A model generated the notes under the pieces. That model made no database searches and was not told the DNA's origin. It saw nothing but the letters and a program-made list of their open reading frames with translations. From positions 414 to 64,413 of the forward strand of contig JASJCF010000005.1 of the NCBI GenBank assembly GCA_030066265.1: a DNA stretch of 64,000 nucleotides. The letters are read 5' to 3'. The DNA comes from Acidimicrobiia bacterium. Its GTDB lineage: Bacteria > Actinomycetota > Acidimicrobiia > Spongiisociales > UBA5794. This document shows, piece by piece, positions 1,731 to 57,721 of the stretch. The position numbers and the translations under genes are program-made. Each line of letters starts with the position of its first letter. Within the stretch, counting starts at the first letter, position 1.

Positions 1731-2087
1731 ATGCCATATGTGAGCTACGTCGAGTTCAACACCGGGGACCTCGAGCAAACGACTTCGTTCTATCGCTCGG
1801 TGTTCGACTGGGATCCCCAACCGTGGGGCGCCGACGACTACCTGGTGGCGAGCCACGGCGACGAGCCGGGTCTCGACACAGGCATCACGACGTCACAGGA
1901 CGGTCAACCCCTCACCGTGGCAACCATCACCGTCGACGATCTCGAGGGGTACATGGCCAAGGTCATCCTCGCAGGAGGCGAGATCGTGGTCCCGAAGTTC
2001 ACCATCCCCGGTGTGGGTCACGCCTGCTACTTCATCGATCCCACCGGCATGATCGTCGGAATGAACCAACCCGACACCGAGGCGTGA
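1731..2087 (+). CDS. VOC (glyoxalase/bleomycin-resistance) family protein
   Basis: 118 aa. VEFNTGDLEQTTSFYRSVFDW...GGEIVVPKFTIPGVGHACYFIDPTGMIVGM is a typical VOC fold signature. SD gagaggga lies upstream. Confidence 0.85.
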   Translation: MPYVSYVEFNTGDLEQTTSFYRSVFDWDPQPWGADDYLVASHGDEPGLDTGITTSQDGQPLTVATITVDDLEGYMAKVILAGGEIVVPKFTIPGVGHACYFIDPTGMIVGMNQPDTEA

Positions 2088-9595: not shown

Positions 9596-12334
9596 CGCCA
9601 CCGCCGCGGGTTCCCGGCGGTCGAGCAGTCGACGCACGAGCTTCTCGCCCTCGACCACCCAGAACACGACCGTGGATGCGACGAGAACGACGGTGAGTTC
9701 GAAGCCCGTGAGCGCCTCGGTGCTCAGGAGGTTCTGCATCGGCTCCCAATAGATGATGATCACCTGGATGGCGAGCGTGATGAGCACCGTCCAGGTGAGA
9801 TACATGTTCGATCGGAGCCCGAGCGTGAACAGCGACTGCCGATCGGATCGAATCGCCAGCGCATTGCCGAGCTGAGAGAGCGCAAGCGTGGTGAACACCA
9901 TCGTCTGCCACGGGCGATCGCCGGCTTCGGCCCAGATGCCGACGCCCAGACACACGAGTCCCATCAACAGACCGACCAGGAGCACCTGCTGCCAGACCCC
10001 GCCCGCAAAGATGCTTTCGTTCGGCGGTCGGGGCTTGCGCTTCATCACGTCGGGCTCGGCTGGTTCGACGCCGAGCGCCAGGCCCGGGAACCCGTCGGTG
10101 ACGAGGTTGATCCAGAGGATCTGGACGGGCAGCAGCGGCAGGGCCAGCCCGACGAACGGGCCGAGGAACATCACCCAGATCTCACCGGCGTTGGACGTGA
10201 GGGTGTACCGCACGAAGCGGCGGATGTTGTCGTAGATCCGTCGACCCTCGCCGACCGCCGTCACGATCGAGGCGAAGTTGTCGTCCGTCAACACCATGTC
10301 GGCGGCTTCCTTCGCAACTTCCGTGCCCGCGATCCCCATCGCAACGCCGATGTCCGCAGTGCGCAGTGCCGGAGCATCGTTCACGCCGTCTCCGGTCATT
10401 GCGACGATGTCCCCATTGGCCTGCCATGCCTGCACGATGTCGAGCTTCTGTTCGGGCGAGGTGCGGGCGTACACCGCAACCGATGAGACCTCGTCGGCGA
10501 GGTCGGCGGCACCCTCCTCTGCTAGCTGCATGCCGGTCAGGACCCGTTCGTCGCCATCCATGATCCCGAGCCGAGTGGCGATCGCCTTGCCCGTGGCTGG
10601 GTGGTCACCCGTGATCATCACCGGCATGATCCCGGCCGTCCGACACGCAGCGACCGCTTGGCCGGATTCGTATCGCGGCGGGTCCGCCATGGCGACGAGG
10701 CCGTAGAGCACCAGCGCTGCCTCGGCTTGCTCAGCGGTCTCGATGGTCATGTCATGTTCGATGCGACCCGAGAGCGAGAGCACGCGATAGCCCTCGGCTG
10801 AGTACGTTGCTGCTCGTCCGAGGATCTGGTCACGCAACGACGGTGACAGTTCCACCGGGCCGTCAAGCGTGGCCACGAAGTCGATGGCGTCGATCGTCGC
10901 CTCGATCGCCCCCTTCACGGCACCAAGTGACGTCCCACCGTCTGCGGACGTGTGCAGCGTCACCATCCGCTTGCGCTCGGAGTCGAACGGTATCTCGGCA
11001 GTGCGCGGGTAGCGGGCGTTCGCCTCCGCTCGATGGAATCCCCCCTTTGCGGCCAGCGCCAGCAGAGCGCCCTCGGTCGGGTCACCGATGACGCTCCAGT
11101 CTTCGTCGTCGTCTTCGGGGGCAACGAGGGTTGCGTCGTTGCACAGGGCGGCAACCAGCAACAGATTCGACAGGGGGCCGCCCTCCTGCGGGTGGATGGG
11201 TTGCCCGTCGAGGACGATCTCACCCGCCGGTTCGAACCCCGTACCGGTCACGGCGAACTCTGCGTCGAGCGTCCACACCTTCTCGACGAGCATCCGGCCC
11301 TCCGTGAGCGTCCCCGTCTTGTCGGTACAGATGACGGTGACCGATCCCAGCGTCTCCACGGCGGGGAGGCGCCGGATGAGGGCATGGTGTTTGATCATCC
11401 GCTGGGCCCCCATGGCCAGACCGATCGTCACCACGGCGGGGAGCGCCTCGGGTATCGCCGCCACTGCGAGGCTGACCGCGGTGAGGAACATGATCTCGAC
11501 GTCCTCACCGCGCAACACACCGACCGCGAACACGATGATCGCAATGACGATGGCTGCTGCGGCGAGCCAGCGACCGAGCACGGCGAGGCGCTTCTGGAGT
11601 GGTGTCGCAGGAGCCTCATGGGTCTGGAGCAGGTCGGCGATCTGGCCGAGCTCGGTGTCCATGCCGGTTGCCACCACCACGGTTCGGGCACGCCCGTAGG
11701 CGACGGCAGTGCCCTTGAACGCCATGTTGGTGCGATCGCCGACCTGGCGACCGGCGTCCTCATCGATGACACCCACATCCTTGCTGACCGGTACCGACTC
11801 TCCGGTCAGTGCCGCCTCGTTCACGCGTAGATCGGGGGTATCGAGAATCCGTGCATCTGCGGCGACGAGATCACCGGCATCGAGGATGAGCACATCCCCG
11901 GGCACGAGCTCGGAAGCTGCCACCGTCGTTTCGACACCGTCCCTGACCACGCGGGCATGCGGAGCGGTCATGGTCCGGAGCGCCGCCATCGCCTGCTCGG
12001 CGCGATACTCCTGGAAGAACCCGATGGCTGCGTTGAGAATGACGATGGCGCCGATGACGATGGCATCGGTCGGTTCGCCGATTGCGACCATGATCGCCGC
12101 AGCGACCAGGAGCACGACGATCATGGTGTTGGCAAACTGGCGGAGGAAGAGTCTCCACCAGGGCTGCGTCGGCTCTTCCTCGAGTTCGTTCGGGCCGTAG
12201 ATCTCCTGCCGGTGCACCACCTGGTCCGCAGTGAGACCCATTGCGGCATCCGAGGCGACTACAGCGACGGCATCGTCCCCGCTGAGCGCCCACCATGAGC
12301 GATGCCCGACCCGATCGACCGTTTCCTCAGACAT
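9584..12334 (-). CDS. P-type cation-transporting ATPase, P2A (Ca2+-type)
   Basis: 916 aa with DKTGTLT, TGDGVNDAPAL, IPEALPAVVT (TM4) and WINLVTDGFPGLALG (TM6). The 3' end overlaps the convergent M20 gene by 12 nt. Confidence 0.9.
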   Translation of the reverse strand: MSEETVDRVGHRSWWALSGDDAVAVVASDAAMGLTADQVVHRQEIYGPNELEEEPTQPWWRLFLRQFANTMIVVLLVAAAIMVAIGEPTDAIVIGAIVILNAAIGFFQEYRAEQAMAALRTMTAPHARVVRDGVETTVAASELVPGDVLILDAGDLVAADARILDTPDLRVNEAALTGESVPVSKDVGVIDEDAGRQVGDRTNMAFKGTAVAYGRARTVVVATGMDTELGQIADLLQTHEAPATPLQKRLAVLGRWLAAAAIVIAIIVFAVGVLRGEDVEIMFLTAVSLAVAAIPEALPAVVTIGLAMGAQRMIKHHALIRRLPAVETLGSVTVICTDKTGTLTEGRMLVEKVWTLDAEFAVTGTGFEPAGEIVLDGQPIHPQEGGPLSNLLLVAALCNDATLVAPEDDDEDWSVIGDPTEGALLALAAKGGFHRAEANARYPRTAEIPFDSERKRMVTLHTSADGGTSLGAVKGAIEATIDAIDFVATLDGPVELSPSLRDQILGRAATYSAEGYRVLSLSGRIEHDMTIETAEQAEAALVLYGLVAMADPPRYESGQAVAACRTAGIMPVMITGDHPATGKAIATRLGIMDGDERVLTGMQLAEEGAADLADEVSSVAVYARTSPEQKLDIVQAWQANGDIVAMTGDGVNDAPALRTADIGVAMGIAGTEVAKEAADMVLTDDNFASIVTAVGEGRRIYDNIRRFVRYTLTSNAGEIWVMFLGPFVGLALPLLPVQILWINLVTDGFPGLALGVEPAEPDVMKRKPRPPNESIFAGGVWQQVLLVGLLMGLVCLGVGIWAEAGDRPWQTMVFTTLALSQLGNALAIRSDRQSLFTLGLRSNMYLTWTVLITLAIQVIIIYWEPMQNLLSTEALTGFELTVVLVASTVVFWVVEGEKLVRRLLDRREPAAVASEV

Positions 12335-48372: not shown

Positions 48373-48645
48373 TCAGCCTTCTTGGCTCTCCGGGACCGGC
48401 CCCACGATGGCGTCGATCGATGCGATGACCTCTTCGATGGTTGCGTGGCGGCCCAGCTCCTTCTTGGAGAACACGAGCTGGTCGCCCACTTCGACCTCGA
48501 AGACGCCTCCACGGCCGGGGATCACCGTGACGGACTCGATGTAGTGCTCGAACTTGTCGAGGATTGCCTGAACCATGCTCACGGCACGGTCGGTATAGCC
48601 TCAAGCCGCGCAGTATTCGAGGGATAGCTTCTTCATGCGCAGCAT
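48373..48645 (-). CDS. SelW/Rdx-family redox protein with in-frame TGA (probable selenocysteine) in a CxxU motif
   Basis: Track ORF 48373..48582 lacks the redox motif. Reading upstream in the same frame gives MLRMKKLSLEYCAA-TGA(48603..48601)-GYTDRAVSMVQAILDKF...IPGRGGVFEVEV.G.LVFSKKE.G. This matches the Rdx pattern IEYCxx[C/U]. SD GAGGA lies 8 nt before ATG 48645. Confidence 0.65.
48571..48591 (-). promoter_or_regulatory. Candidate bacterial SECIS hairpin
   Basis: On the mRNA: UGA-ggcuauacc-GACCGUG-ccgugag-CAUGGUU. A 7-bp stem (two G-U pairs) and a 7-nt loop containing GU. The loop begins about 17 nt after the UGA. Confidence 0.4.
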
Positions 48646-48750
48646 GCTACCGATCCTCGGAGACCTCGCTCCGCACCACTGTCTTGATGGGCCTCATCGG
48701 GCTCGACGCTATCGACGCCTACGAACGCAGACGGGCGGACGTCGGGCAGG

Positions 48751-49098
48751 TCAGGCCGCCCTGAACACCATCCCGTAGTAGCTGTCGTACGGCTCCCTTC
48801 GCACGACATCCACTTCGCCGACGACGGCCATCCCGATCTCCGGCTCGTCGATTTCGAGTTGACCGAGCATCCGCATCCCGTTCTCGAGCTCCACGATGCC
48901 GATCCCGAGCGTGGCGACCTCGTATTGCGCGGGAAGGTTGTGGACTCGCGTCCAGGTGACGAGTGAGCCGGTCCTCGGAAGCGGCACGGTGTCGAACTCG
49001 AAGAAGTCGTTCTGCTTGCACTCCTTGCAGACCATGCGGAACGGGTAGTGGGACGCCCCACACCGCCGGCACACGTATGCGTAGATGTTGCGATCCAT
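48751..49098 (-). CDS. DUF35 Zn-ribbon/OB-fold protein
   Basis: MDRNIYAYVCRRCGASHYPFRMVCKECK... followed by an OB-fold region. The start shares one nucleotide with the stop of the thiolase-like gene (TGATG). Confidence 0.85.
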   Translation of the reverse strand: MDRNIYAYVCRRCGASHYPFRMVCKECKQNDFFEFDTVPLPRTGSLVTWTRVHNLPAQYEVATLGIGIVELENGMRMLGQLEIDEPEIGMAVVGEVDVVRREPYDSYYGMVFRAA

Positions 49099-50273
49099 CA
49101 CGACTCCCTCACGAAGGTGCAGCACACCACGTTGTTCCCGAATCCGCCGAAGTTGCAGGTGAACCCGACCCGAGCACCTTCCACCTGTCGGGTCCCGCCG
49201 TCACCACGCAGCTGCGTGACGATCTCCCAGGCTTGGGCAACACCGGTCGCTCCCACAGGGTGGCCTCGGCCCTTCAACCCGCCGCCCACGTTGATCGGGA
49301 TGGTCCCCCCAAGGGCGGTCTCACCCTTCTCGAGCGCCAGGTGCCCCTCGCCCCTCGGGAAGAACCCGACCTCTTCGCTCTCGACGATCTCGAGGATGGT
49401 GAAGGCGTCATGGAGCTCTGCAACGTCAACGTCCTGTGGCGTGATGCCTGCCATGGCGAAGGCATCGTTCGCCGCCTTGCGCACGGCGAGCAGATCGGTG
49501 GGTTCGTCGCGCTCGAACACGGCGTGTGTGTCGGTGGCCTGCCCGATGCCGCTGATGCGGACGAGGGGACGGCCCAGCTCACGAGCCTTCTCCTCCGACA
49601 CGAGCACGAGGGCTGCTCCGCCGTCGGAAACCGGGCATGCGTCGAAGAACCGCAGCGGTTCGGCCACGTAGGGGTTGTTCGTCATCGCCTCGGGCGAATC
49701 CAGGATTCCCTCGATGGTGATGGGTTGTTGCAGGTGCGCCCACTCATTTGCGAGCGCAGCGTTCTGGTTCTTCACCGACACCATCGCCAGATGCCGCTCG
49801 GTGACGCCGTATCGCTCCATGTACAACCGCGTGAACATGGCTGCGTGCGCCGGCAGCGTCACCCCGTAGATGTACTCAGCAAGGGGATGGGTGAGGGTCG
49901 CGACGAAGTCGGTGGCCTCGAGGTTGTTGACCTCGCGCATCCGTTCGGCGCCCGCGACGAGCACGACGTCGTCCATGCCGGAGGCCACCGCTTGGAATCC
50001 CGCCTTGATGGCTGCAGCTCCCGATGCCGGACCGTTCTCGATCGCAGCGGCACCGGCCGGCATGAGGCTCAGGCTGTCGACCACGGCGCTGGCGAGCGCA
50101 GTCTGGTGGTTCACTCGCGGCGAGCCCATGTTGGCCACGTAGACCTGGTCGACCTCGGTCACCCCGGCATCTCGAAGGGCCATCATCGATGCGTACGAAG
50201 CGATCTCGACCAGGGGATACTCGAGCCTCGTGAACGTGGTGATGCCGATTCCGGCCACATAGACGTCACGCAT
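49098..50273 (-). CDS. Thiolase-fold (SCP-x/Ltp-type) protein lacking the N-terminal nucleophile Cys
   Basis: MRDVYVAGIGITTF...IENGPASGAAAIKAG...VLVAGAERM...GGGLKGRGHPVGATG...TCNFGGFG. Pro occupies the usual (C)ASG Cys position. SD ggaggggagg precedes the start. Confidence 0.85.
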   Translation of the reverse strand: MRDVYVAGIGITTFTRLEYPLVEIASYASMMALRDAGVTEVDQVYVANMGSPRVNHQTALASAVVDSLSLMPAGAAAIENGPASGAAAIKAGFQAVASGMDDVVLVAGAERMREVNNLEATDFVATLTHPLAEYIYGVTLPAHAAMFTRLYMERYGVTERHLAMVSVKNQNAALANEWAHLQQPITIEGILDSPEAMTNNPYVAEPLRFFDACPVSDGGAALVLVSEEKARELGRPLVRISGIGQATDTHAVFERDEPTDLLAVRKAANDAFAMAGITPQDVDVAELHDAFTILEIVESEEVGFFPRGEGHLALEKGETALGGTIPINVGGGLKGRGHPVGATGVAQAWEIVTQLRGDGGTRQVEGARVGFTCNFGGFGNNVVCCTFVRES

Positions 50274-51024
50274 CGGCCGACCTCCCCTCCATCTCCCAAC
50301 GTTGAGCCATGAGCGATGTCCCCGTCGGGTCGTACATCGATCGCGTCGCCGCAAGCGGATCCAACGGCGGTGTCGGCGGATCCGATGGCGGCAGGATCGC
50401 GTCCATTGCCTTGTCCAGCAGGTCCGCGGGCACGGGGCGACGGCCGACGACGAGCGTGGCGCGAGCAGCGTCGAACAGCTCCCGGGTGAGTGCCCACGAT
50501 GGCACACCGCCGAGCTCGTGGGGAGTGTCGAAGCGCTTCTCGAGCCGATACTCGATCATCCAACGCCGGAACCCGATCGGCGATTCGGCGACGATGAGGA
50601 CCTCATCGTGTCCGAGCGTGTCGATGTGGTACTCCATCTTGGCCGCAAACGCATGGGCACCGACACGCAGGCCCCGACGCAGCGCCAGCGTGTGGAGTGA
50701 CATCCCGAGGTCCGGGGTGACCTGCCTACCGTTGACGATGGCCGCCAGCTCGCCGTCGATCTGGACGGCGAGCACGTACTGGTCCTGATAGCGGTGGCGA
50801 TAGTGCGCCAGCAGCTCGGAGTAGACGCGGGCGGCCACCACGTCGTAGTAGTCGCGCTCGACATGGAGCAAGGGCTCCACGTGTCTCAGCAGGTCCGGGA
50901 TCTCATCACGATCGACCTGCCTCACCACCGCCGCTTCGCCGCTGGCGAGCATCATGTACTTGGGCTCGTACGGCTTCATCGGGGTGTCGACCGGCCGCAG
51001 GATCTTCTCTAGGTCGACGGACAT
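50266..51024 (-). CDS. Hypothetical protein (252 aa), operon member
   Basis: ATG 51024 with SD aaggagaagg. Its end overlaps the thiolase-like start by 8 nt. No family recognised. Confidence 0.6.
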   Translation of the reverse strand: MSVDLEKILRPVDTPMKPYEPKYMMLASGEAAVVRQVDRDEIPDLLRHVEPLLHVERDYYDVVAARVYSELLAHYRHRYQDQYVLAVQIDGELAAIVNGRQVTPDLGMSLHTLALRRGLRVGAHAFAAKMEYHIDTLGHDEVLIVAESPIGFRRWMIEYRLEKRFDTPHELGGVPSWALTRELFDAARATLVVGRRPVPADLLDKAMDAILPPSDPPTPPLDPLAATRSMYDPTGTSLMAQRWEMEGRSADA

Positions 51025-51049
51025 CGGGCTCCTTCTCCTTCGGTGGTCA

Positions 51050-53431
51050 TCAGGTCGGCGACGCGGAAACTGCCTGCGCAACCTTCTCCTGGGTGATCGG
51101 CATGGACGTGATGCGGACGCCGAGCGCATCGAAGACGGCGTTGGCGATCGCCGGAGCGGCGCCGATCATCGTGTGTTCCCCCACGCCTCTGGCGCCGAAC
51201 GGGCCATCCGGCTGGGGAACTTCGATGATGATGGGGATCATCTCGTCGGGGATGTCGAACGCCGTGGGGATCTTGTAGTCGGTGAAGTTCGGGTTCAGCA
51301 GCCGGCCGTCTTCGTCGAAGCGCATGTCCTCGTACAGCACGGTCGCCAGCCCCTGTACGAGACCGCCGGTGATCTGCCCTCTCACGAGGTCCGGGTTGAT
51401 CGCCTTCCCGGCGTCGACGGCGAGCGCCGCCTTGCGCACGAAGATGCGTCCGGTGTGCGTGTCGATCTCGATCACCATGCCGCATGCGCCAACCGTGTAG
51501 TGCACGTTGGGATGGCCGCCCTGACCGGTCTCCGGATCGCTGTTCGCGTTGGTGAACTCGGGCATGAACTTCCCACTGGCGACGATCGGGCCGCCGCGCC
51601 ACGTGCCGTCCTCGGTTTGGATCCCGTCGATCACGAAGTCCCGCAGGGGCTTGGCGAAGTCGGGGTCGGTGGTGCACTTCACCTGCTCGTCGGCCAGATA
51701 CAACGTGTCGTCCTCGTAGCCGTACACCTGGTGGATGACGTCGAAGATCTTCTCGCGCGCCTCCACCGCGGCCCTCTCGACCGCCAGGCCCGAGCTCCAG
51801 GTGACATGCGACGCCACGGTCTGCCACTCGTACGGATTGCGGTCGGTGTCCGGCGTCTCCACGCGGACCTTCTCGACAGGGAGACCGAGCACCTCGGCGG
51901 CGATCTGCGCCATCACGGTGAGGTATCCCTGCCCGAGCTCCATGCCCGAGACGCTGACGTTGACGCTGCCATCCTCGTTGAACTTCAAGAACGATGCCGA
52001 TGAGGCATTCGGCGGCATGGCGGGCGCCTTCCAGAACAGCGCGATGCCCTTTCCGATCACGGTGTTCGGATCGTCGGATTGCTCCTCCACGCCCCAGTCG
52101 ATCGCCGACGCCGTCTCATCGATGGCGGGGAGCAGACCGGACGGATTCATGTGGGCGCCGTAGGACAGCTCGTCGCCCTCGACGATGGCGTTCTTCCGCC
52201 GGAAGTCGACCGGATCCATGCCGATCGCCGCGGCGACCCGATCCAGGTGCGATTCGAGACCGAAATGGAACTCCGAATAGCCAAATCCCCGATAGGGGCC
52301 GCCAGGCGGCAGGTTGGTGTACACGCACAACGAGTCGTTGCGGATGTTCGGCACCCGGTACGGCCCGGTGGCTGAGAGACCCGCTGCATTGACCACGTTG
52401 GCGCCGTACTCGACGTAGGCACCGGCGTCCCAATAGAGCGTGTGCTCGACGGCGGTGATGGTGCCGTCGTTCATCACGCCCACCTTGAGTTCGGCAACCA
52501 CACCCTGGCGCTGGTAGGTGTTGTAGAACTCCTGCTCCCGGGTGAAGCGAAGCTTGACGGGATGCCCCTTCACCGCTGTCGCCATCGCCGCACCGATGAC
52601 CTCCATGGTCACCCCTGCCTTGCCGCCGAAGCCACCGCCCACATAGGGGGTGATCACGCGCACGTCCTTGTGGCTGAAGCCCAGCGGAGCGAGCGCCTCG
52701 GCGAAGAGGTGGCGCTGGGTGTGCGGCGATTGCGATGCCGTCCACACGGTCAGCCGGCCTGCGTGATCGAGCTTGCCGACGGTGACGTGCGGCTCGATGG
52801 CGCAGTGGGCGTACCGCGGAACCCGGTAGGTGTCGGCCAGCACGTAGTCGGCTTCGGCGAAGGCGCGCTCGGTGTCGCCCTTGCGGATCTTGCGCCAGTG
52901 AGCGATGTTCGTGCCGGCCTTGGGGAAGAACCAGGGCACATGGCTGTATTCGCCGAGATCCGGATGGATCAGTGGAGCTCCGTCGGCCACTGCCTCCTTC
53001 GGGTCGAGGAGCGCCTCGAGGACCTCGTACTCGACCTCGACCAGCTTGGCGGCCTGCACTGCCTGGCGATGGGTCCTGGCGATGACGCCTGCGACCTGCT
53101 CACCGACGAAGCGGACATGGCCCTGGGCGAAGATGTACCGGTCCCCCATGTACATACCGAAGTTGTACGGGAAGTCCTGGCCGGTGACGACCTTGACGAC
53201 ACCGGGAGCGTCCTCGGCTTTCGAGGTGTCGATGGAGACGATGCGTGCGTAGGCGTGAGGGCTCTCGACGACCGCACCGTGGAGCAGGCCCGGACCGAAG
53301 TCGAGGTCGTCGACGAACTGGGCGGCGCCACTGATCTTGTCGATCCCATCGATGCGCACGGCGGACGTTCCCACGGCATTGAGCTCGCCGTTGCGTTCGG
53401 CCTCCGCCTCGAACGGGTGGGTGGTCGTCAT
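51050..53431 (-). CDS. Molybdopterin-binding large subunit of a xanthine-dehydrogenase-family hydroxylase
   Basis: VGTSAVRIDGIDKISGAAQFVDDL...GGGFGGK... in 793 aa. ATGA overlap with the 2Fe-2S subunit gene. No CODH-type AYRCSFR motif was seen. Confidence 0.9.
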   Translation of the reverse strand: MTTTHPFEAEAERNGELNAVGTSAVRIDGIDKISGAAQFVDDLDFGPGLLHGAVVESPHAYARIVSIDTSKAEDAPGVVKVVTGQDFPYNFGMYMGDRYIFAQGHVRFVGEQVAGVIARTHRQAVQAAKLVEVEYEVLEALLDPKEAVADGAPLIHPDLGEYSHVPWFFPKAGTNIAHWRKIRKGDTERAFAEADYVLADTYRVPRYAHCAIEPHVTVGKLDHAGRLTVWTASQSPHTQRHLFAEALAPLGFSHKDVRVITPYVGGGFGGKAGVTMEVIGAAMATAVKGHPVKLRFTREQEFYNTYQRQGVVAELKVGVMNDGTITAVEHTLYWDAGAYVEYGANVVNAAGLSATGPYRVPNIRNDSLCVYTNLPPGGPYRGFGYSEFHFGLESHLDRVAAAIGMDPVDFRRKNAIVEGDELSYGAHMNPSGLLPAIDETASAIDWGVEEQSDDPNTVIGKGIALFWKAPAMPPNASSASFLKFNEDGSVNVSVSGMELGQGYLTVMAQIAAEVLGLPVEKVRVETPDTDRNPYEWQTVASHVTWSSGLAVERAAVEAREKIFDVIHQVYGYEDDTLYLADEQVKCTTDPDFAKPLRDFVIDGIQTEDGTWRGGPIVASGKFMPEFTNANSDPETGQGGHPNVHYTVGACGMVIEIDTHTGRIFVRKAALAVDAGKAINPDLVRGQITGGLVQGLATVLYEDMRFDEDGRLLNPNFTDYKIPTAFDIPDEMIPIIIEVPQPDGPFGARGVGEHTMIGAAPAIANAVFDALGVRITSMPITQEKVAQAVSASPT

Positions 53432-53898
53432 GGCGTCACCTCGCCGGAGCGCTGTCCCACCGCCAGCACGGCATCGATGATGGGCTCGTATCCCGTGCAG
53501 CGGCACAGGTTCCCGGACAGGGCTTCCTGGACATCGTGGCGGTCCGGGTTCGGGTTCTCGTCGAGGAGCTCCGTGGCGGACAGCACGATGCCCGGGGCAC
53601 AGAATCCACATTGGAAGGAGTTCAGGGTGATGAAGAGCTCCTGCAGGTCGCTCAGCCGGTCAGCACCGATTCCCTCGACCGTCGTGACTTCGTGGCCCTC
53701 GACCTCCACGGCCAAGACGAGACAGCTCCGCACGGTGCGTCTGTCGAGCAACACGGTGCATGAGCCGCAATCGCCCCGTTCGCAACCGATCTTCGGGCTC
53801 TTGACACCGATCTGCTCGCGAAGGACGTCGAGCAGGACATCTGCCGGCGCCACATCGAGATCCCACGACTCGCCGTTGACGGTGATCGTCACCTGCAT
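53428..53898 (-). CDS. [2Fe-2S]-binding small subunit of the Mo hydroxylase
   Basis: GCERGDCGSCTVLLD...FQCGFCAPG...NLCRCTGY. Confidence 0.9.
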   Translation of the reverse strand: MQVTITVNGESWDLDVAPADVLLDVLREQIGVKSPKIGCERGDCGSCTVLLDRRTVRSCLVLAVEVEGHEVTTVEGIGADRLSDLQELFITLNSFQCGFCAPGIVLSATELLDENPNPDRHDVQEALSGNLCRCTGYEPIIDAVLAVGQRSGEVTP

Positions 53899-53909: not shown

Positions 53910-54794
53910 TCAGATCAGTCGAGTTCGATACTCGGGCCCGTCACCGTTCCTCCGCTGATCGGCTGCCACCAGCCCACGGGCGAGCATGACCTCGCACATG
54001 TGGGCCCGGTACTCCGCTGTCGCCCGCAAGTCGTTGATGGGACTGATCTCGCTCCGAACCATGGCCACTGCCTCGGCGATCACGTCTTCGGTGGGCGCTC
54101 TGCCCCGGATGGCGTCCTCGACTGCGTGGGCACGAACGGGGGTGGGCGCCACGGCACCGAAGGCGATCCGGTAGTCGTGGGCGTCGTCGACGACGATGGC
54201 GACCGCCGCCTGGGCGAGGTCCTCGCCTCCGTATCGCATGAGCTTGACGTAGCACCCCCCGTGTGTGGGCAGCTCCATGGTGAGGTGCGTGACGATCTCG
54301 TCCTCTCGCCTCGCCGTCTGTCGGAGGCCGACGAACCACGCTTCGATCGGCACCGAGCGGAACCCCTCGGGTCCCACGAGATGCACGTGCGCGTCGTAGG
54401 CCAACAGCACGGGACCGGCGTCGCACGAGGGCACAGCCGAGCAGATGTTGCCGACCACCGTCGCTCGATTGCGGATGCCGGGGGAAGCAACCGTCTCCGC
54501 CGCCTCGGACAGGAGCGGCGCATGCTCTGCGACGACGGACGACTCCATCAGGTCCGTGAATGTCACGAGGGATCCGACCGTCATCGTCCGGTCCGCAACA
54601 GCGAGGTCGCGAAGGCCGTCGATCGCCTTGATGTCGACAACGAGATCAGGGTGCACGGCATCGTCCCTCAGCCAAGCAACCAGGTCCGTCCCCCCAGCGA
54701 GCACCTGAGCGGAGCCGGAACAGTCCGCCAGGGCCCGGGTTGCCTCTTCGAGCGTGTTCGGCCTCACGTACTCGAAGTCGTGCGGGATCACCAC
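53910..54794 (-). CDS. FAD-binding medium subunit of the Mo hydroxylase
   Basis: FEYVRPNTLEEA...VLAGGTDLV... (CoxM/XdhB-like). GTG start with SD GAGGAGG. Confidence 0.85.
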   Translation of the reverse strand: MVIPHDFEYVRPNTLEEATRALADCSGSAQVLAGGTDLVAWLRDDAVHPDLVVDIKAIDGLRDLAVADRTMTVGSLVTFTDLMESSVVAEHAPLLSEAAETVASPGIRNRATVVGNICSAVPSCDAGPVLLAYDAHVHLVGPEGFRSVPIEAWFVGLRQTARREDEIVTHLTMELPTHGGCYVKLMRYGGEDLAQAAVAIVVDDAHDYRIAFGAVAPTPVRAHAVEDAIRGRAPTEDVIAEAVAMVRSEISPINDLRATAEYRAHMCEVMLARGLVAADQRRNGDGPEYRTRLI

Positions 54795-54887
54795 GGTGCC
54801 CTCCTCTCAGACCACCCAACAGGGGACCACCCAACAGTACGTGACCGGCCACCCGACGGCGATGACATCCGGGTATCGGCCATGCCG

Positions 54888-56294
54888 CTACCGCACCGCC
54901 TCGGCGAGCGCCTCGATGCCATCGACGAACACCTCCATCGGCGCCTCGACCAGACCGGCACCGACCATGCCGGTGCCCGGGATCCGCCCGGCGATCCCCG
55001 TGTTGATCTGAGGCTGAATGCCCGTGCGTACCACGAGGCCGGCATCGATGCCGACAGGGGTGCCGCGGAACTCGAGCATCGGGATCTGATAGGCCGGGTG
55101 CTCGGCCAGCGTGATCTCGTACATCTGCAGGGTTCGCCGCACGGCACCCGTGGCGGTCCCGCCGACGAAGCCCACGATGGCTGGCGCAGCAGCCATGGCG
55201 AAACCCCCGAGGCCGACGGTCTCGGTGATGGTGGAATCACCGATGTCGGGGCTTGCGTCATCGGCGCTGAATCCTCCGAGATAAAGGCCTTCGACACGTG
55301 GTGCCGGCGCGGTGAACCAGCGGTTGCCGGTTCCCGAGAGGCGGATCCCGAACTCCGTGCCGTTGCGCGCCATGACGGTGACGAGGCTCGAGGCGTCGAC
55401 ACCGGAGGCGGCGTCGGAGCCGAGCTTGCCGGCCGCCATGACGAGATTCAGCATGAAGTGATCGTTGCCATCGATGAAGTCGAATACCGCCCTTCGCTGG
55501 TCCGAGGGGGAATCGACGCCGTCGATCAGCGCCGATCCGATCTGGCGCAGGAAGAGGGAGGTGACGGCGCGGTTCCGGTTGTGTCCGTCGTCGCCCATCT
55601 GCAACGCTTGGGCGATCAGGGATTGGAGATCCACCGGTCCGCGGGTGCGCAGGACCGCGCCGAGCACCGGTCCCAGCACCGAGTCCATCCAACGCAGACG
55701 ATCGATGACCTCTGGGGCGAACGCGCCGTACCGCAGTACCTTGCCGAGCCCTTCGTTGAGGGTGGAGTACGCGACACCGTCGCCTGCATCGTCGTGGACG
55801 ACCGCAACCGGCATCGATGGCGAGATGACCCCGGCCATCGGGCCGACCGCGCTGTGGTGATGGCATGGCGAGAGTTCGATGTCACCGCGCGCCGCCAACG
55901 TCTCGGCTTGCTCCGGGCTCTCGGCAAGACCCTCGTAGAGCATGGCACCGATCAGCGCGCCCCGGAGCGGGCCACTCGCGTCGGCCCACTCCACCGGCGG
56001 CCCGGCATGCAGGAACGTTCGCTCGGCCATATCCGGCAGACACTCGCCTGCGGTGCCGATATCGACGAGCATCGGGCGAACGCCGAGCATGCGATCCACC
56101 GCGAGGCGGTTCGCTGCGAATGTCTTCCCGGCTGCCGCAAGAGTGGGGAGCGACGCCGCCGAGCCCGACACCGGCGGTCTCCAGTCGACGCGATACACCG
56201 TGGCACCCTGTTCCTCGACAGCAGCTGCGAGCAGGTCGGCCCCGGCTGCCACCACCGTGGGTTCGGAGTCGAGCAAACGGTCGAGCGATGTCAT
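54888..56294 (-). CDS. DUF1116 protein (E. coli YlbE/AllG-like)
   Basis: ...FLHAGPP...LSPCHHHSAVGPMAGVISPSMPV...NEGLGKVLRYG... . The start shares one nucleotide with the fdrA-like stop. Confidence 0.8.
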   Translation of the reverse strand: MTSLDRLLDSEPTVVAAGADLLAAAVEEQGATVYRVDWRPPVSGSAASLPTLAAAGKTFAANRLAVDRMLGVRPMLVDIGTAGECLPDMAERTFLHAGPPVEWADASGPLRGALIGAMLYEGLAESPEQAETLAARGDIELSPCHHHSAVGPMAGVISPSMPVAVVHDDAGDGVAYSTLNEGLGKVLRYGAFAPEVIDRLRWMDSVLGPVLGAVLRTRGPVDLQSLIAQALQMGDDGHNRNRAVTSLFLRQIGSALIDGVDSPSDQRRAVFDFIDGNDHFMLNLVMAAGKLGSDAASGVDASSLVTVMARNGTEFGIRLSGTGNRWFTAPAPRVEGLYLGGFSADDASPDIGDSTITETVGLGGFAMAAAPAIVGFVGGTATGAVRRTLQMYEITLAEHPAYQIPMLEFRGTPVGIDAGLVVRTGIQPQINTGIAGRIPGTGMVGAGLVEAPMEVFVDGIEALAEAVR

Positions 56295-57721
56295 CAGCGT
56301 TCCTCCATTCGCGCAGCGAGCCCGGCGGCGTGGCGAGCTGCTGCCGCGTTCGACACGTAGACAGCCGCTCCGGCGCTGTTGAGCGTCGCCGCCTGCCGTG
56401 CGAGCCCCTGGGGGTCACCCTTCGTCCCACACAGGGAGGCGATGACGGCGACGCCCGCATCGACGACCTGCTCGATCGCGGGCGCCAACTCGCCAGCCGG
56501 ATCGGGATTGGCACCGTGCCCCAGCACCACATCCAGAAGAGCGATTCCCACGGTCTCGTCACGTGCGGCTTCCGCCAGACGATCGAGGCGCACCGTCTGG
56601 TCGATCATGGGATGGGCGCGGCCTCTGGTGTAGCGGTCGTCCCCGTAGTCGACGAAGACGTGTCCCGACGACCCTTCGCTCGTGCCCACGGTTGCGCCGA
56701 GGGCGCGTTCCACGACGAACCGGGCATCGTCGCGCAAGGTTCCGCCCGAGAACAGGCCGCGAATGGTGCCCGGTCGACGATCGGACCGGGACGCGGGCCA
56801 CGCCGAATACGCTCGGGGCTCGCGGCCCAGCACTGCCAGAACCTCACCGGACCCGTCCTCGAGCGTCGTGTCGCCCATGAAGACGACGACCACCGGCGTG
56901 TCGCAGGCAGCTGCGGCGTCCCGCACCTCGGCGGCAACCGCCTCTGCCGGAGGTTTGGAGATCACCACGATCACGTCCGTTGCCGGATCCGCATCGAGGG
57001 CATGCATTGCTTGTTTCGTCGAACGTCCCCCGACCTCGCCGGAGAGATCCCGGCTCCCCGTGCCGATGGCATGACGGACACCGACACCGGCGTCGTCGAG
57101 GAGGCAGCACAACTGCTGGATGCCCGTGCCGGACGCACCAACCATGCTGACGGGGCCCGGCAGCACCGCATTCGCAAAGCCGAGGCCCACGCCGTTGATG
57201 ATCGTCGTGCCACAGTCGGGCCCCATGACGAGCAACCCGCGTTGGGCAGCTCTCTTCTTGAGCGCCATCTCATGCTCGATGGAGACGTTGTCGCTGAAGA
57301 CCATCACGTGCAGGCCGAGTTCCAAGGCCTCAGCGGCCTCTGCGTAGGCATGCTCGCCTGGCATCGAGATCAAGGCGACGTCGGCATCCCGAGCGGCATG
57401 ACCGATGGTCCTGGGGTCCGGAGCGTCCCAGCCACCCTCGGGAGACGGGCGCGCTACGAGCGCCTGTGCCAGGACCTCGCGTGCGACCTCGAGCGCAGCC
57501 TCGTCCTCGGCTCGGATCGCAACCAGGAGATCGTCGGCGCCCCAGTCGTCCGCTTCGGCGGTGTCGAACCCCATGTCGGCCAGGAGATCGAGATTCAGCT
57601 CGGTTGCCATGGCGACCAGTGCGGCGTGAACGCCTGCGACGTCGCCGACGGCCCGGCTGGCCTGCATCAATCGCACGGAGTCGTGGTAGCGGCCCCGATG
57701 TATCTGGATGCTGCTGATCAT
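56294..57721 (-). CDS. FdrA-like (succinyl-CoA-synthetase-alpha-like) protein
   Basis: IHRGRYHDSVRLMQ...LISMPGEHA...VMVFSDNV...GPDCGTTIING...GASGTG. ATGA overlap with the DUF2877 gene. Confidence 0.8.
   Translation of the reverse strand: MISSIQIHRGRYHDSVRLMQASRAVGDVAGVHAALVAMATELNLDLLADMGFDTAEADDWGADDLLVAIRAEDEAALEVAREVLAQALVARPSPEGGWDAPDPRTIGHAARDADVALISMPGEHAYAEAAEALELGLHVMVFSDNVSIEHEMALKKRAAQRGLLVMGPDCGTTIINGVGLGFANAVLPGPVSMVGASGTGIQQLCCLLDDAGVGVRHAIGTGSRDLSGEVGGRSTKQAMHALDADPATDVIVVISKPPAEAVAAEVRDAAAACDTPVVVVFMGDTTLEDGSGEVLAVLGREPRAYSAWPASRSDRRPGTIRGLFSGGTLRDDARFVVERALGATVGTSEGSSGHVFVDYGDDRYTRGRAHPMIDQTVRLDRLAEAARDETVGIALLDVVLGHGANPDPAGELAPAIEQVVDAGVAVIASLCGTKGDPQGLARQAATLNSAGAAVYVSNAAAARHAAGLAARMEER

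What the first reader, a model, noticed from the sequence alone, without database searches (positions are those of the whole stretch)
48373..48645. Hidden selenoprotein: SelW/Rdx-family gene with CxxU motif split by an in-frame TGA
The ORF track shows only a 69-aa fragment (48373..48582) that matches the C-terminal two thirds of Rdx/SelW-like proteins (IPGRGGVFEVEV.G.LVFSKKE.G) but lacks their N-terminal redox motif.

Reading the same frame upstream gives MLRMKKLSLEYCAA-TGA-GYTDRAV. This reproduces the family's IEYCxx[C/U] motif with TGA (48603..48601) exactly at the second redox position, where SelW-family members carry Sec or Cys.

Supporting details:
- A good SD (GAGGA, 8-nt spacing) precedes ATG 48645. 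I saw no comparable SD before the internal GTG.
- A 7-bp hairpin with a GU-containing loop starts 9 nt after the UGA, which makes it a SECIS candidate.

Sec decoding would require selA/selB/selC/selD elsewhere in the genome. In my experience that trait is uncommon among actinobacteria.
Basis: partly seen in the sequence, partly recalled or inferred. Interest (0 to 1): 0.75.

Follow-up and report, generated by a model that had tools for sequence, protein, structure and literature searches.

The report
Mis-called SelW-like selenoprotein gene
This is very likely a genuine small selenocysteine-containing redox protein gene of the well-known bacterial SelW-like (Rdx) family, which ordinary gene finders cut short because they read its selenocysteine codon (TGA) as a stop; it is a correct catch but an ordinary one.

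Summary
On the minus strand, 48636..48373 reads MKKLSLEYCAA-TGA-GYTDRAVSMVQ…ESQEG. With Cys in place of TGA it matches Pfam Rdx (E 1.6e-19, profile 2-73/74) and NCBIfam TIGR02174 CXXU_selWTH (64.8 bits, cut-off 34.2).

The TGA is not a mutation. All 80 related loci fetched (Acidimicrobiia, other Actinomycetota, Chloroflexota MAGs) carry TGA at this position. The peptide before it is conserved while its codons vary synonymously.

A hairpin 17 nt after the UGA (48591..48571, loop CGUGA) meets all four criteria of the published bacterial SECIS model. Its codons are frozen at synonymous sites in the 30 nearest sequences, and it shows compensatory changes.

TGA is otherwise the normal stop here (25 of 33 long ORFs, including this gene's own).

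The proposed SD is not conserved.

Not testable: selA/B/C/D are absent from the 64-kb window. One relative's contig carries a Sec-type SelD about 8.5 kb from its SelW-like gene.

SelW-like selenoproteins have been described since 2005, so this is a new member of a known kind.

The parts
48644..48649 (-). -10-like promoter hexamer TAGCAT (TAnnnT), 7 nt upstream of the ATG at 48636.
   Evidence: A TAnnnT lies 5-8 nt upstream of the conserved start in 55 of 78 homologues, against 1.1% of 30,116 background ATGs for spacers of 6-7 nt. Inferred promoter; the TSS has not been mapped.
48634..48636 (-). Most likely start codon ATG (M of MKKLSLEYC)
   Evidence: It aligns with the M(K/H)LS[IL]EYC start shared by relatives, several of which have an in-frame stop or no ATG further upstream.
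48373..48636 (-). Full SelW-like/Rdx selenoprotein CDS: 87 residues, Cys9-Ala-Ala-Sec12, ending in an ordinary TGA stop at 48375..48373
   Evidence: Pfam PF10262 E 1.6e-19, profile 2-73/74. TIGR02174 64.8 bits, cut-off 34.2. Aligns with PDB 3DEX and 2FA8 across the CxxC motif.
48610..48612 (-). Cys codon TGC, first redox residue of CxxU
   Evidence: Read. TGC in 74 and TGT in 5 of 79 sequences.
48601..48603 (-). In-frame TGA = predicted selenocysteine codon (Sec12)
   Evidence: TGA in 81 of 81 sequences at the homologous position. It aligns with the second Cys of CxxC in solved Rdx proteins.
48571..48591 (-). Bacterial SECIS hairpin: 5' arm 48591..48584, apical loop CGUGA 48583..48579, 3' arm 48578..48571. 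It encodes D-R-A-V-S-M-V.
   Evidence: 8 bp, 5-nt loop with G at loop position 2, 17 nt after the UGA, dG -9.9 kcal/mol; all four criteria of the bSECIS model quoted are met. 94.7% of cells paired, with 3 pairs changed on both sides. Codons frozen at synonymous sites.
48373..48582 (-). The mechanically called 69-aa GTG ORF, an artefact of reading UGA as stop. Its GTG is the Val codon inside the SECIS loop.
   Evidence: Database relatives are likewise called as 62-69 aa fragments.

Best explanation
The gene at 48636..48373 (minus strand) encodes an 87-residue SelW-like (Rdx family) protein, inferred by homology to have a thioredoxin-like fold, with a Cys9-x-x-Sec12 redox centre. Inferred mechanism of decoding: the mRNA probably starts at or next to the AUG (a leaderless transcript from a TAnnnT -10 box). 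When the ribosome reaches UGA at codon 12, the hairpin 17 nt downstream (a bacterial SECIS, loop CGUGA) recruits SelB-GTP-Sec-tRNA(Sec), and selenocysteine is inserted instead of termination. The ribosome then melts the hairpin, translates it as DRAVSMV, and terminates at the ordinary UGA at 48375..48373, which has no such hairpin. Inferred mechanism of the protein: like other CxxC/CxxU Rdx proteins, it cycles between a selenol/thiol and a selenenylsulfide and acts as a small thiol-dependent oxidoreductase; its substrate and reductant are unknown. Shown here: family membership, conservation of the UGA and of the flanking peptide, and RNA-level constraint on the hairpin. Inferred: actual Sec insertion, leaderless transcription and redox function.
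For: Family: PF10262 Rdx E 1.6e-19 over profile 2-73/74 when the stop is read as Cys, against profile 19-73 for the 69-aa fragment. TIGR02174 CXXU_selWTH scores 64.8 bits, above its 34.2 cut-off. The site aligns with the second Cys of 'IEYCTQC' in 3DEX and 2FA8. Conservation: TGA at the site in the window and all 80 loci, which span protein identities of 42-83% and include Acidimicrobiia, other Actinomycetota and Chloroflexota MAGs. All 120 best database homologues are 62-69 aa truncated calls; none is a full-length Cys form. Translation of the pre-UGA peptide: the amino acids are conserved while the codons vary (Leu 2.03 bits, Ser 2.0 bits, Ala 1.58 bits). SECIS: codons +4 to +9 are frozen (GAC 30/30, CGT 30/30, GCC 29/30, GTG 29/30, AGC 26/26), while Arg and Ser codons elsewhere show 1.2-2.2 bits. 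94.7% of cells are paired against 15-48% in slid controls, with compensatory U-A to C-G changes. A second register in other lineages also shows double-sided changes. All four published bSECIS criteria are met. No global recoding: TGA ends 25 of 33 long ORFs, including this gene. Orthologous, stable locus: the convergent amidohydrolase, IMPase, Lnt and aminotransferase are syntenic in 24-40 loci. Sec use in the wider lineage: a Sec-type selD (SHGAG-TGA-ACKLGP; TIGR00476 403.7 bits) lies about 8.5 kb from the SelW-like gene on the L035 contig. The literature reports selA/B/C/D in all 84 complete Actinomarina genomes. Known family.
Against: No selA, selB, selD or tRNA-Sec is present in the 64-kb window, so Sec decoding in this particular genome is unverified. 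The source contig is not on record. No second selenoprotein gene was found in the window. Rfam has no matching model. The single-sequence fold is only marginally better than shuffles and prefers another hairpin. Covariation is modest in absolute terms (3-4 pairs with double changes), and I assigned sequences to the two registers by their best pairing, which biases the pairing percentages upward. No fold prediction could be run. Attempts to tie SelD to the MAGs of the closest relatives failed.
Confidence: 0.9

Rival explanations
1. The TGA is a nonsense mutation of a Cys codon, and the gene is a pseudogene in this strain.
For: No Sec machinery is seen in the window. One relative (L011) carries an additional TAG inside the gene, showing that damaged or mis-assembled copies exist.
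Against: TGA is present at the same codon in 80 of 80 relatives across at least two phyla, and no TGC/TGT form was found. Both flanks are under purifying selection. The locus is syntenic and stable.
Confidence: 0.02
2. The real product is the short 67-69-aa protein started at the internal GTG/ATG. The upstream stretch is an untranslated leader, and the hairpin is a regulatory or ribosome-access element.
For: Gene callers in public databases all predict this short form. An ATG (the Met of SMVQ) lies in the 3' arm of the hairpin in the window's clade.
Against: The short form lacks strand 1 and the CxxC/U centre that define the family (profile 19-73 only). The upstream 11 codons are conserved as amino acids with free synonymous change, which is not expected of a leader. 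In the type-B lineages the peptide at this site is RAVGLTE, with no Met. No SD precedes the internal start.
Confidence: 0.03
3. UGA is read through, but not as selenocysteine in this organism. For example, Cys or Trp could be inserted by near-cognate or SelB-mediated mis-charging, or this genome has lost the Sec pathway and the gene is now silent.
For: The Sec machinery cannot be confirmed from the window. Published work documents loss of the Sec trait or of individual selenoproteins in bacterial lineages.
Against: The SECIS hairpin in the window is intact and identical to that of its relatives. After loss of the pathway it would be expected to decay, or the TGA to revert to TGC. TGA functions as a normal stop in 25 of 33 ORFs.
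Confidence: 0.05

Closest known systems
Bacterial SelW-like selenoproteins (CXXU), described by Zhang, Gladyshev and colleagues (PMC1088965, 2005; PMC1794560, 2006)
   Same: A small protein of about 80-90 aa matching the Rdx/SelW profile, with a CxxU motif near the N-terminus, a SECIS stem-loop immediately downstream of the UGA with a G in a small apical loop, few or no Cys-containing orthologues, and routine mis-annotation as a truncated ORF.
   Different: Nothing fundamental. This copy belongs to an uncultured Acidimicrobiia-type clade not named in those surveys, and it appears to be expressed from a leaderless-type promoter.
Bacterial CxxC Rdx proteins of solved structure: SAV_2001 of Streptomyces avermitilis (PDB 3DEX) and Atu0228 (PDB 2FA8)
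   Same: Homologous over residues 3-63 and 3-78 (E 4.4e-9 and 8.2e-8). The redox motif is in the same place, 'IEYCTQC' against 'LEYCAAU'.
   Different: Those proteins have Cys at the second position and need no recoding. They are about 105 aa, against 87 here.
Mammalian selenoprotein W (SelW, Rdx family)
   Same: The same family and the same CxxU arrangement, with Sec as the second redox residue (my own knowledge of the family; family match).
   Different: The eukaryotic SECIS lies in the 3' UTR and has a different structure (stated in PMC1088965). Here the SECIS lies inside the coding sequence 17 nt after the UGA.
E. coli fdhF-type bacterial SECIS / the consensus bSECIS model (PMC13188914, Fig. 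2A)
   Same: A stem-loop in the coding region just after the UGA, with a small apical loop carrying G followed by U and spacing within 16-37 nt.
   Different: The sequence is unrelated. The hairpin is short (7-8 bp). Orthologues in other lineages use a hairpin shifted 4 nt downstream.

Membership tests
Rdx / SelT-SelW-SelH family (Pfam PF10262; NCBIfam TIGR02174 CXXU_selWTH) | Profile-HMM match above the curated cut-off over the whole domain | tested here: met
   PF10262 70.3 bits (cut-off 22.6), profile 2-73/74. TIGR02174 64.8 bits (cut-off 34.2), profile 2-73/74. The narrower equivalog NF041051 SelTWH_Campy scores 74.7 bits, below its cut-off of 88, so the protein is not a member of that sub-model.
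Rdx / SelT-SelW-SelH family | CxxC or CxxU redox motif directly after the first beta-strand near the N-terminus | tested here: met
   LEYC-A-A-(TGA) aligns column for column with IEYC-T-Q-C of 3DEX and IRYC-T-Q-C of 2FA8.
Rdx / SelT-SelW-SelH family | Thioredoxin-like fold | not tested
Only sequence homology to solved Rdx structures is available.
Bacterial selenoprotein gene | In-frame UGA at a position occupied by Cys in homologues and conserved as UGA in orthologues | tested here: met
   81 of 81 TGA. Cys at the same column in PDB homologues.
Bacterial selenoprotein gene | bSECIS element: apical loop of 3-9 nt, upper stem of 4-16 bp, G in the first two loop positions, 16-37 nt from the UGA, MFE of -7.5 kcal/mol or lower (PMC13188914) | tested here: met
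   Window: 8 bp, loop CGUGA, 17 nt, -9.9 kcal/mol. All 79 sequences meet the geometric criteria, and 51 of 79 also meet the energy criterion on the apical hairpin alone. Supported by pair counts and frozen synonymous sites.
Bacterial selenoprotein gene | Sec-decoding machinery (selA, selB, selC tRNA-Sec, selD) in the same genome | not testable with these tools
   Only 64 kb of the genome is available. It holds no tRNA and no SelA/B/D hit, and the source contig is not on record. Indirect evidence: a Sec-type selD on the same contig as the SelW-like gene in L035.
Bacterial selenoprotein gene | Selenium actually incorporated into the polypeptide | not testable with these tools
   Requires 75Se labelling or mass spectrometry.
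Actinobacterial leaderless transcript | TAnnnT -10 hexamer about 6-7 nt upstream of the start codon and no Shine-Dalgarno sequence | tested here: met
   Window: TAGCAT, a 7-nt spacer, then ATG 48636, with no SD core at -5..-17. 55 of 78 homologues share the box, against a 1.1% background.
Actinobacterial leaderless transcript | Transcription start mapped at the first base of the start codon | not testable with these tools
   Needs 5'-RACE or differential RNA-seq.

The most novel reading that the evidence does not exclude
In the Acidimicrobiia clade the whole Sec-recoding unit may sit at the extreme 5' end of a leaderless mRNA. The AUG would be at +1, the UGA at codon 12 and the SECIS hairpin at about nt +49 to +69. 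That would make it a natural minimal cassette of about 70 nt in which initiation without an SD and SelB-dependent recoding happen within the first 70 nt. In addition, orthologues in other lineages have moved the SECIS hairpin 4 nt downstream, with a matching change of the encoded peptide from RAVSMV to RAVGLT, which documents turnover of a SECIS inside one orthologous gene. In the held library, a search for 'leaderless' with 'SECIS' and 'selenoprotein' found no description of a leaderless bacterial selenoprotein mRNA. That is not proof that none exists.
Probability: 0.55. Interest if true: 0.35.

Novelty: new member of a known kind. Interest (0 to 1): 0.25.

Why it matters
Practically, it is an annotation fix. 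The gene, and at least 80 orthologues in public MAGs plus some 120 database entries, are recorded as 62-69-aa fragments that lack the catalytic centre. It also marks this uncultured Acidimicrobiia-type organism as a probable selenium user, adding to recent evidence that Sec use is common in that class. Scientifically it adds little that is new: SelW-like CXXU proteins were already the most abundant selenoprotein family found in the Sargasso Sea survey of 2005, and their biochemical role remains unknown. The compact arrangement of a leaderless start, the UGA and a short SECIS could be a convenient natural template for Sec-insertion reporters in high-GC Gram-positive hosts.

Tried and rejected
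1. Single-sequence folding of the 67 nt around the UGA. The MFE structure uses another hairpin (loop AUG) that is broken in close relatives such as L001 (GTT to GTG), so I rejected it in favour of the conserved ACCGUGC/GCAUGGU stem.
2. Rfam at gathering and at permissive thresholds. Nothing relevant; the one hit (E 9.2) is noise.
3. A hairpin-anchored alignment combining both registers. MAFFT restored the codon register, so the two groups were tested separately.
4. Exact look-ups of the 69-aa product and of the neighbouring thiolase, to find the source contig. Neither is on record.
5. tRNA-Sec near the SelW-like genes in 60 loci. None found.
The only hit was SelD in L035, later verified with NCBIfam.
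No match beyond L035, so this is inconclusive for the nearest relatives.
8. A scan of the window for other TGA-interrupted coding frames. None was convincing; the candidates are antisense shadows or ordinary gene ends.
9. Structure prediction of the U-to-C product.
10. Rejected because neither is conserved, whereas the TAnnnT box and the ATG 48636 position are.
11. A functional link to the upstream DUF35/thiolase/Mo-hydroxylase genes. Rejected because that side of the locus is not syntenic in relatives.

Full report
OBSERVATION. The minus strand of the window between 48660 and 48373 translates as PRIGSMLRMKKLSLEYCAA*GYTDRAVSMVQAILDKFEHYIESVTVIPGRGGVFEVEVGDQLVFSKKELGRHATIEEVIASIDAIVGPVPESQEG*. 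The mechanical ORF list holds only the 69-aa GTG ORF at 48373..48582. From the position ruler:
- the in-frame stop is TGA at 48603..48601
- the preceding Cys codon TGC is at 48612..48610
- there are two in-frame ATGs, at 48645 and 48636
- GAGGA lies at 48658..48654

FAMILY. With Cys written for the stop, the product matches Pfam Rdx (PF10262) at E 1.6e-19 over profile positions 2-73 of 74. The 69-aa fragment covers only positions 19-73. NCBIfam TIGR02174 'CXXU_selWTH' scores 64.8 bits against a cut-off of 34.2. Among solved structures the best matches are the bacterial CxxC Rdx proteins SAV_2001 (3DEX, E 4.4e-9) and Atu0228 (2FA8). In those alignments the TGA codon falls on the second Cys of 'IEYCTQC'.

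IS THE TGA A LESION OR A CODON? A search of 5.8 billion proteins returned 180 homologues. All 120 listed are 62-69 aa and cover only about 57-74% of the query, so they were truncated at the same place by gene callers. I fetched 80 genomic loci encoding relatives (42-83% identical). They come from MAGs labelled Acidimicrobiia, Actinomycetota, and Anaerolineae or other Chloroflexota. Read upstream in frame, every locus shows ...[LI][ST][IL]EYCxx-stop-.... The stop is TGA in 79 of 79 sequences scored automatically and in the two remaining loci, L055 and L078, which makes 81 of 81 with the window. No TGC or TGT form was seen.

Among the 30 nearest sequences the codons before the TGA keep their amino acids but vary freely at synonymous sites (Leu 2.03 bits, Ser 2.0, Ala 1.58). 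This is the signature of a translated peptide, not of a leader. TGA is otherwise the ordinary terminator in this window: it ends 25 of 33 long coding-like ORFs, including this gene at 48375..48373. Genome-wide reassignment of TGA is therefore excluded. The locus is orthologous and stable, since the convergent amidohydrolase, the inositol-monophosphatase-like gene, lnt and an aminotransferase downstream are syntenic in 24-40 of the loci.

THE RNA ELEMENT. Counting the U of UGA as position 1, the window forms the stem 13/14-20 with 26-32/33 and the loop 21-25 (CGUGA). In window coordinates this is 48591..48571. Fifty-four of the 79 sequences use this register (type A). The other 25 form a hairpin shifted 4 nt downstream, with stem 20-24/30-34 and loops such as GGUCU, AGGUU and CGUGC (type B). 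L038 is ambiguous between the two registers.

Pair counts on de-duplicated, ungapped alignments gave the following:
- Type A: 94.7% of cells paired, against 15-48% when the partner is slid by 1-3 columns. Three pairs change on both sides, for example U-A to C-G where CGT/ATG becomes CGC/GCG. None of 500 shuffles reached the observed covariation score.
- Type B: 78.6% paired over 7 pairs, with the inner five essentially always paired. Four pairs change on both sides, for example CCGUC/GACGG to CCACC/GGUGG.

An independent signal is the freezing of synonymous sites. Codons +4 to +9 are GAC 30/30, CGT 30/30, GCC 29/30, GTG 29/30, AGC 26/26 and ATG 29/29. Arg and Ser codons elsewhere in the same gene show 1.2-2.2 bits of codon entropy.

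I compared the element with the published consensus bSECIS model: loop of 3-9 nt, upper stem of 4-16 bp, G in the first two loop positions, 16-37 nt from the UGA, MFE of -7.5 kcal/mol or lower (PMC13188914). The window element meets all four criteria, with 8 bp, loop CGUGA, 17 nt and -9.9 kcal/mol. All 79 sequences meet the geometric criteria, and 51 also pass the energy threshold on the apical hairpin alone.

Caveats: I assigned sequences to registers by best pairing. The absolute number of compensatory events is small. The single-sequence MFE fold prefers a different hairpin that is not conserved. Rfam has no model that matches.

START AND PROMOTER. The relatives start at M(K/H)LS[IL]EYC. 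Several have an in-frame stop or no ATG further upstream. A TAnnnT hexamer lies 5-8 nt upstream of that start in 55 of 78 sequences. Only 1.1% of 30,116 background ATGs in the same loci have one at a spacer of 6-7 nt. Of the 23 sequences without the hexamer (largely Chloroflexota and more distant Actinomycetota), 22 have a GGAG-type Shine-Dalgarno core instead. In the window the hexamer is TAGCAT (48649..48644), followed by 7 nt and ATG 48636. From my own knowledge, a TAnnnT box about 6-7 nt before the start codon is the usual layout of actinobacterial leaderless genes. I therefore take ATG 48636 as the start (an 87-residue product with Cys9 and Sec12) and a leaderless transcript as likely. 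No consensus sigma-70 promoter or intrinsic terminator was found by the simple scans.

SEC MACHINERY. I found no second TGA-interrupted coding frame.

The indirect evidence is as follows. On the L035 contig a gene about 8.5 kb from the SelW-like gene reads SFSHGAG-TGA-ACKLGP and scores 403.7 bits on TIGR00476 selD. It is thus a Sec-type selenophosphate synthetase, which itself requires Sec decoding. Relatives of that SelD are mostly called about 20-30 residues short at the N-terminus, and all six fetched places (four distinct proteins) have the same TGA. I could not tie any of them to the MAGs of the nearest SelW relatives.

The literature adds two points. A 2026 preprint reports selA, selB, selC and selD in all 84 complete Actinomarina (class Acidimicrobiia) genomes. 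Zhang et al. 2006 count Actinobacteria among the three selenoprotein-family-rich phyla.

COMPARISON WITH WHAT IS KNOWN. SelW-like CXXU proteins with a bacterial SECIS were the most abundant selenoprotein family in the Sargasso Sea survey, with 48 genes (PMC1088965). They were noted to have very few or no Cys homologues in Sec-using organisms (PMC1794560), which matches the 81 of 81 TGA seen here. The same papers state that such genes are almost universally mis-annotated. The finding is therefore a correct detection of a new member of a well-described family. Its biochemical function is still inferred only from the CxxU motif and, by homology, a thioredoxin-like fold.

VERDICT. A genuine SelW-like selenoprotein gene with a functional-looking SECIS (confidence 0.9). 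The start codon is revised to 48636, probably on a leaderless transcript (confidence about 0.65). The rivals together carry about 0.1: a pseudogene, a short internal-start product, or read-through that is not Sec or a pathway that has been lost. Interest is low to moderate (0.25). The only mildly new aspects are the leaderless context and the two SECIS registers within one orthologous gene.

Noticed in passing
L035 536..1456 (= L081 about 9930..10969); also L082-L086: The selenophosphate synthetase genes in these actinobacterial contigs are Sec-type (SHGAG-TGA-ACKLGP). Public gene calls truncate them to 322-329 aa. They share a conserved MgtE-SelD arrangement, and no selA or selB lies within 10 kb.
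   Followed up: partly
L001-L080, first 40 nt after the Sec TGA: Orthologues use two different SECIS registers offset by 4 nt: type A has loop nt 21-25 and type B has loop nt 25-29. The encoded peptide changes to match, from RAVSMV to RAVGLT. This looks like evolutionary turnover of a SECIS within one gene.
   Followed up: partly
L001-L080, 25 nt upstream of the start codons: There is a clean split in how the same gene is expressed. Sequences have either a TAnnnT box 5-8 nt before the start (55 of 78, leaderless type, mainly Acidimicrobiia) or a GGAG-type Shine-Dalgarno (22 of the other 23, mainly Chloroflexota-labelled MAGs).
   Followed up: yes
L011 about 1797..1799 (codon 59 of the printed read-through translation, MPRMHLS…): This relative has TAG in place of the invariant Ser codon of FSKKEL (VF*KKEL). 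It is either an assembly error on a 2.1-kb contig or a real pseudogene copy.
   Followed up: no
L015 (CAXMSN010000092.1) and L020 (SMXV01000020.1): These contigs are labelled Kiloniellales (Alphaproteobacteria) and Acidobacteria. Both carry a SelW-like gene 66-67% identical to the window's, and L015 also carries the Acidimicrobiia-type syntenic neighbours (Lnt 68% and aminotransferase 79% identical to the window's). The contigs are probably mis-binned.
   Followed up: no
window 51050..53659 (-), with further subunit-like ORFs at 53910..54806 and 54888..56414 (-): A molybdenum hydroxylase large subunit resembling XdhA or 4-hydroxybenzoyl-CoA reductase. All equivalog scores are below their cut-offs, including 360.9 bits on the selenium-dependent XDH model (cut-off 830). 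Its position near the selenoprotein gene is not conserved in relatives.
   Followed up: no
window 48751..50507 (-): A pair of genes for a DUF35/BbsA-like zinc-ribbon protein and an SCP-x-type thiolase lies immediately upstream of the selenoprotein gene. They are separated from it by the 114-nt promoter-bearing spacer and are not syntenic in relatives.
   Followed up: partly
window 50266..51129 (-): A 287-aa ORF with a coding-like GC3 pattern and no NCBIfam match at E of 1e-5 or below.
   Followed up: no
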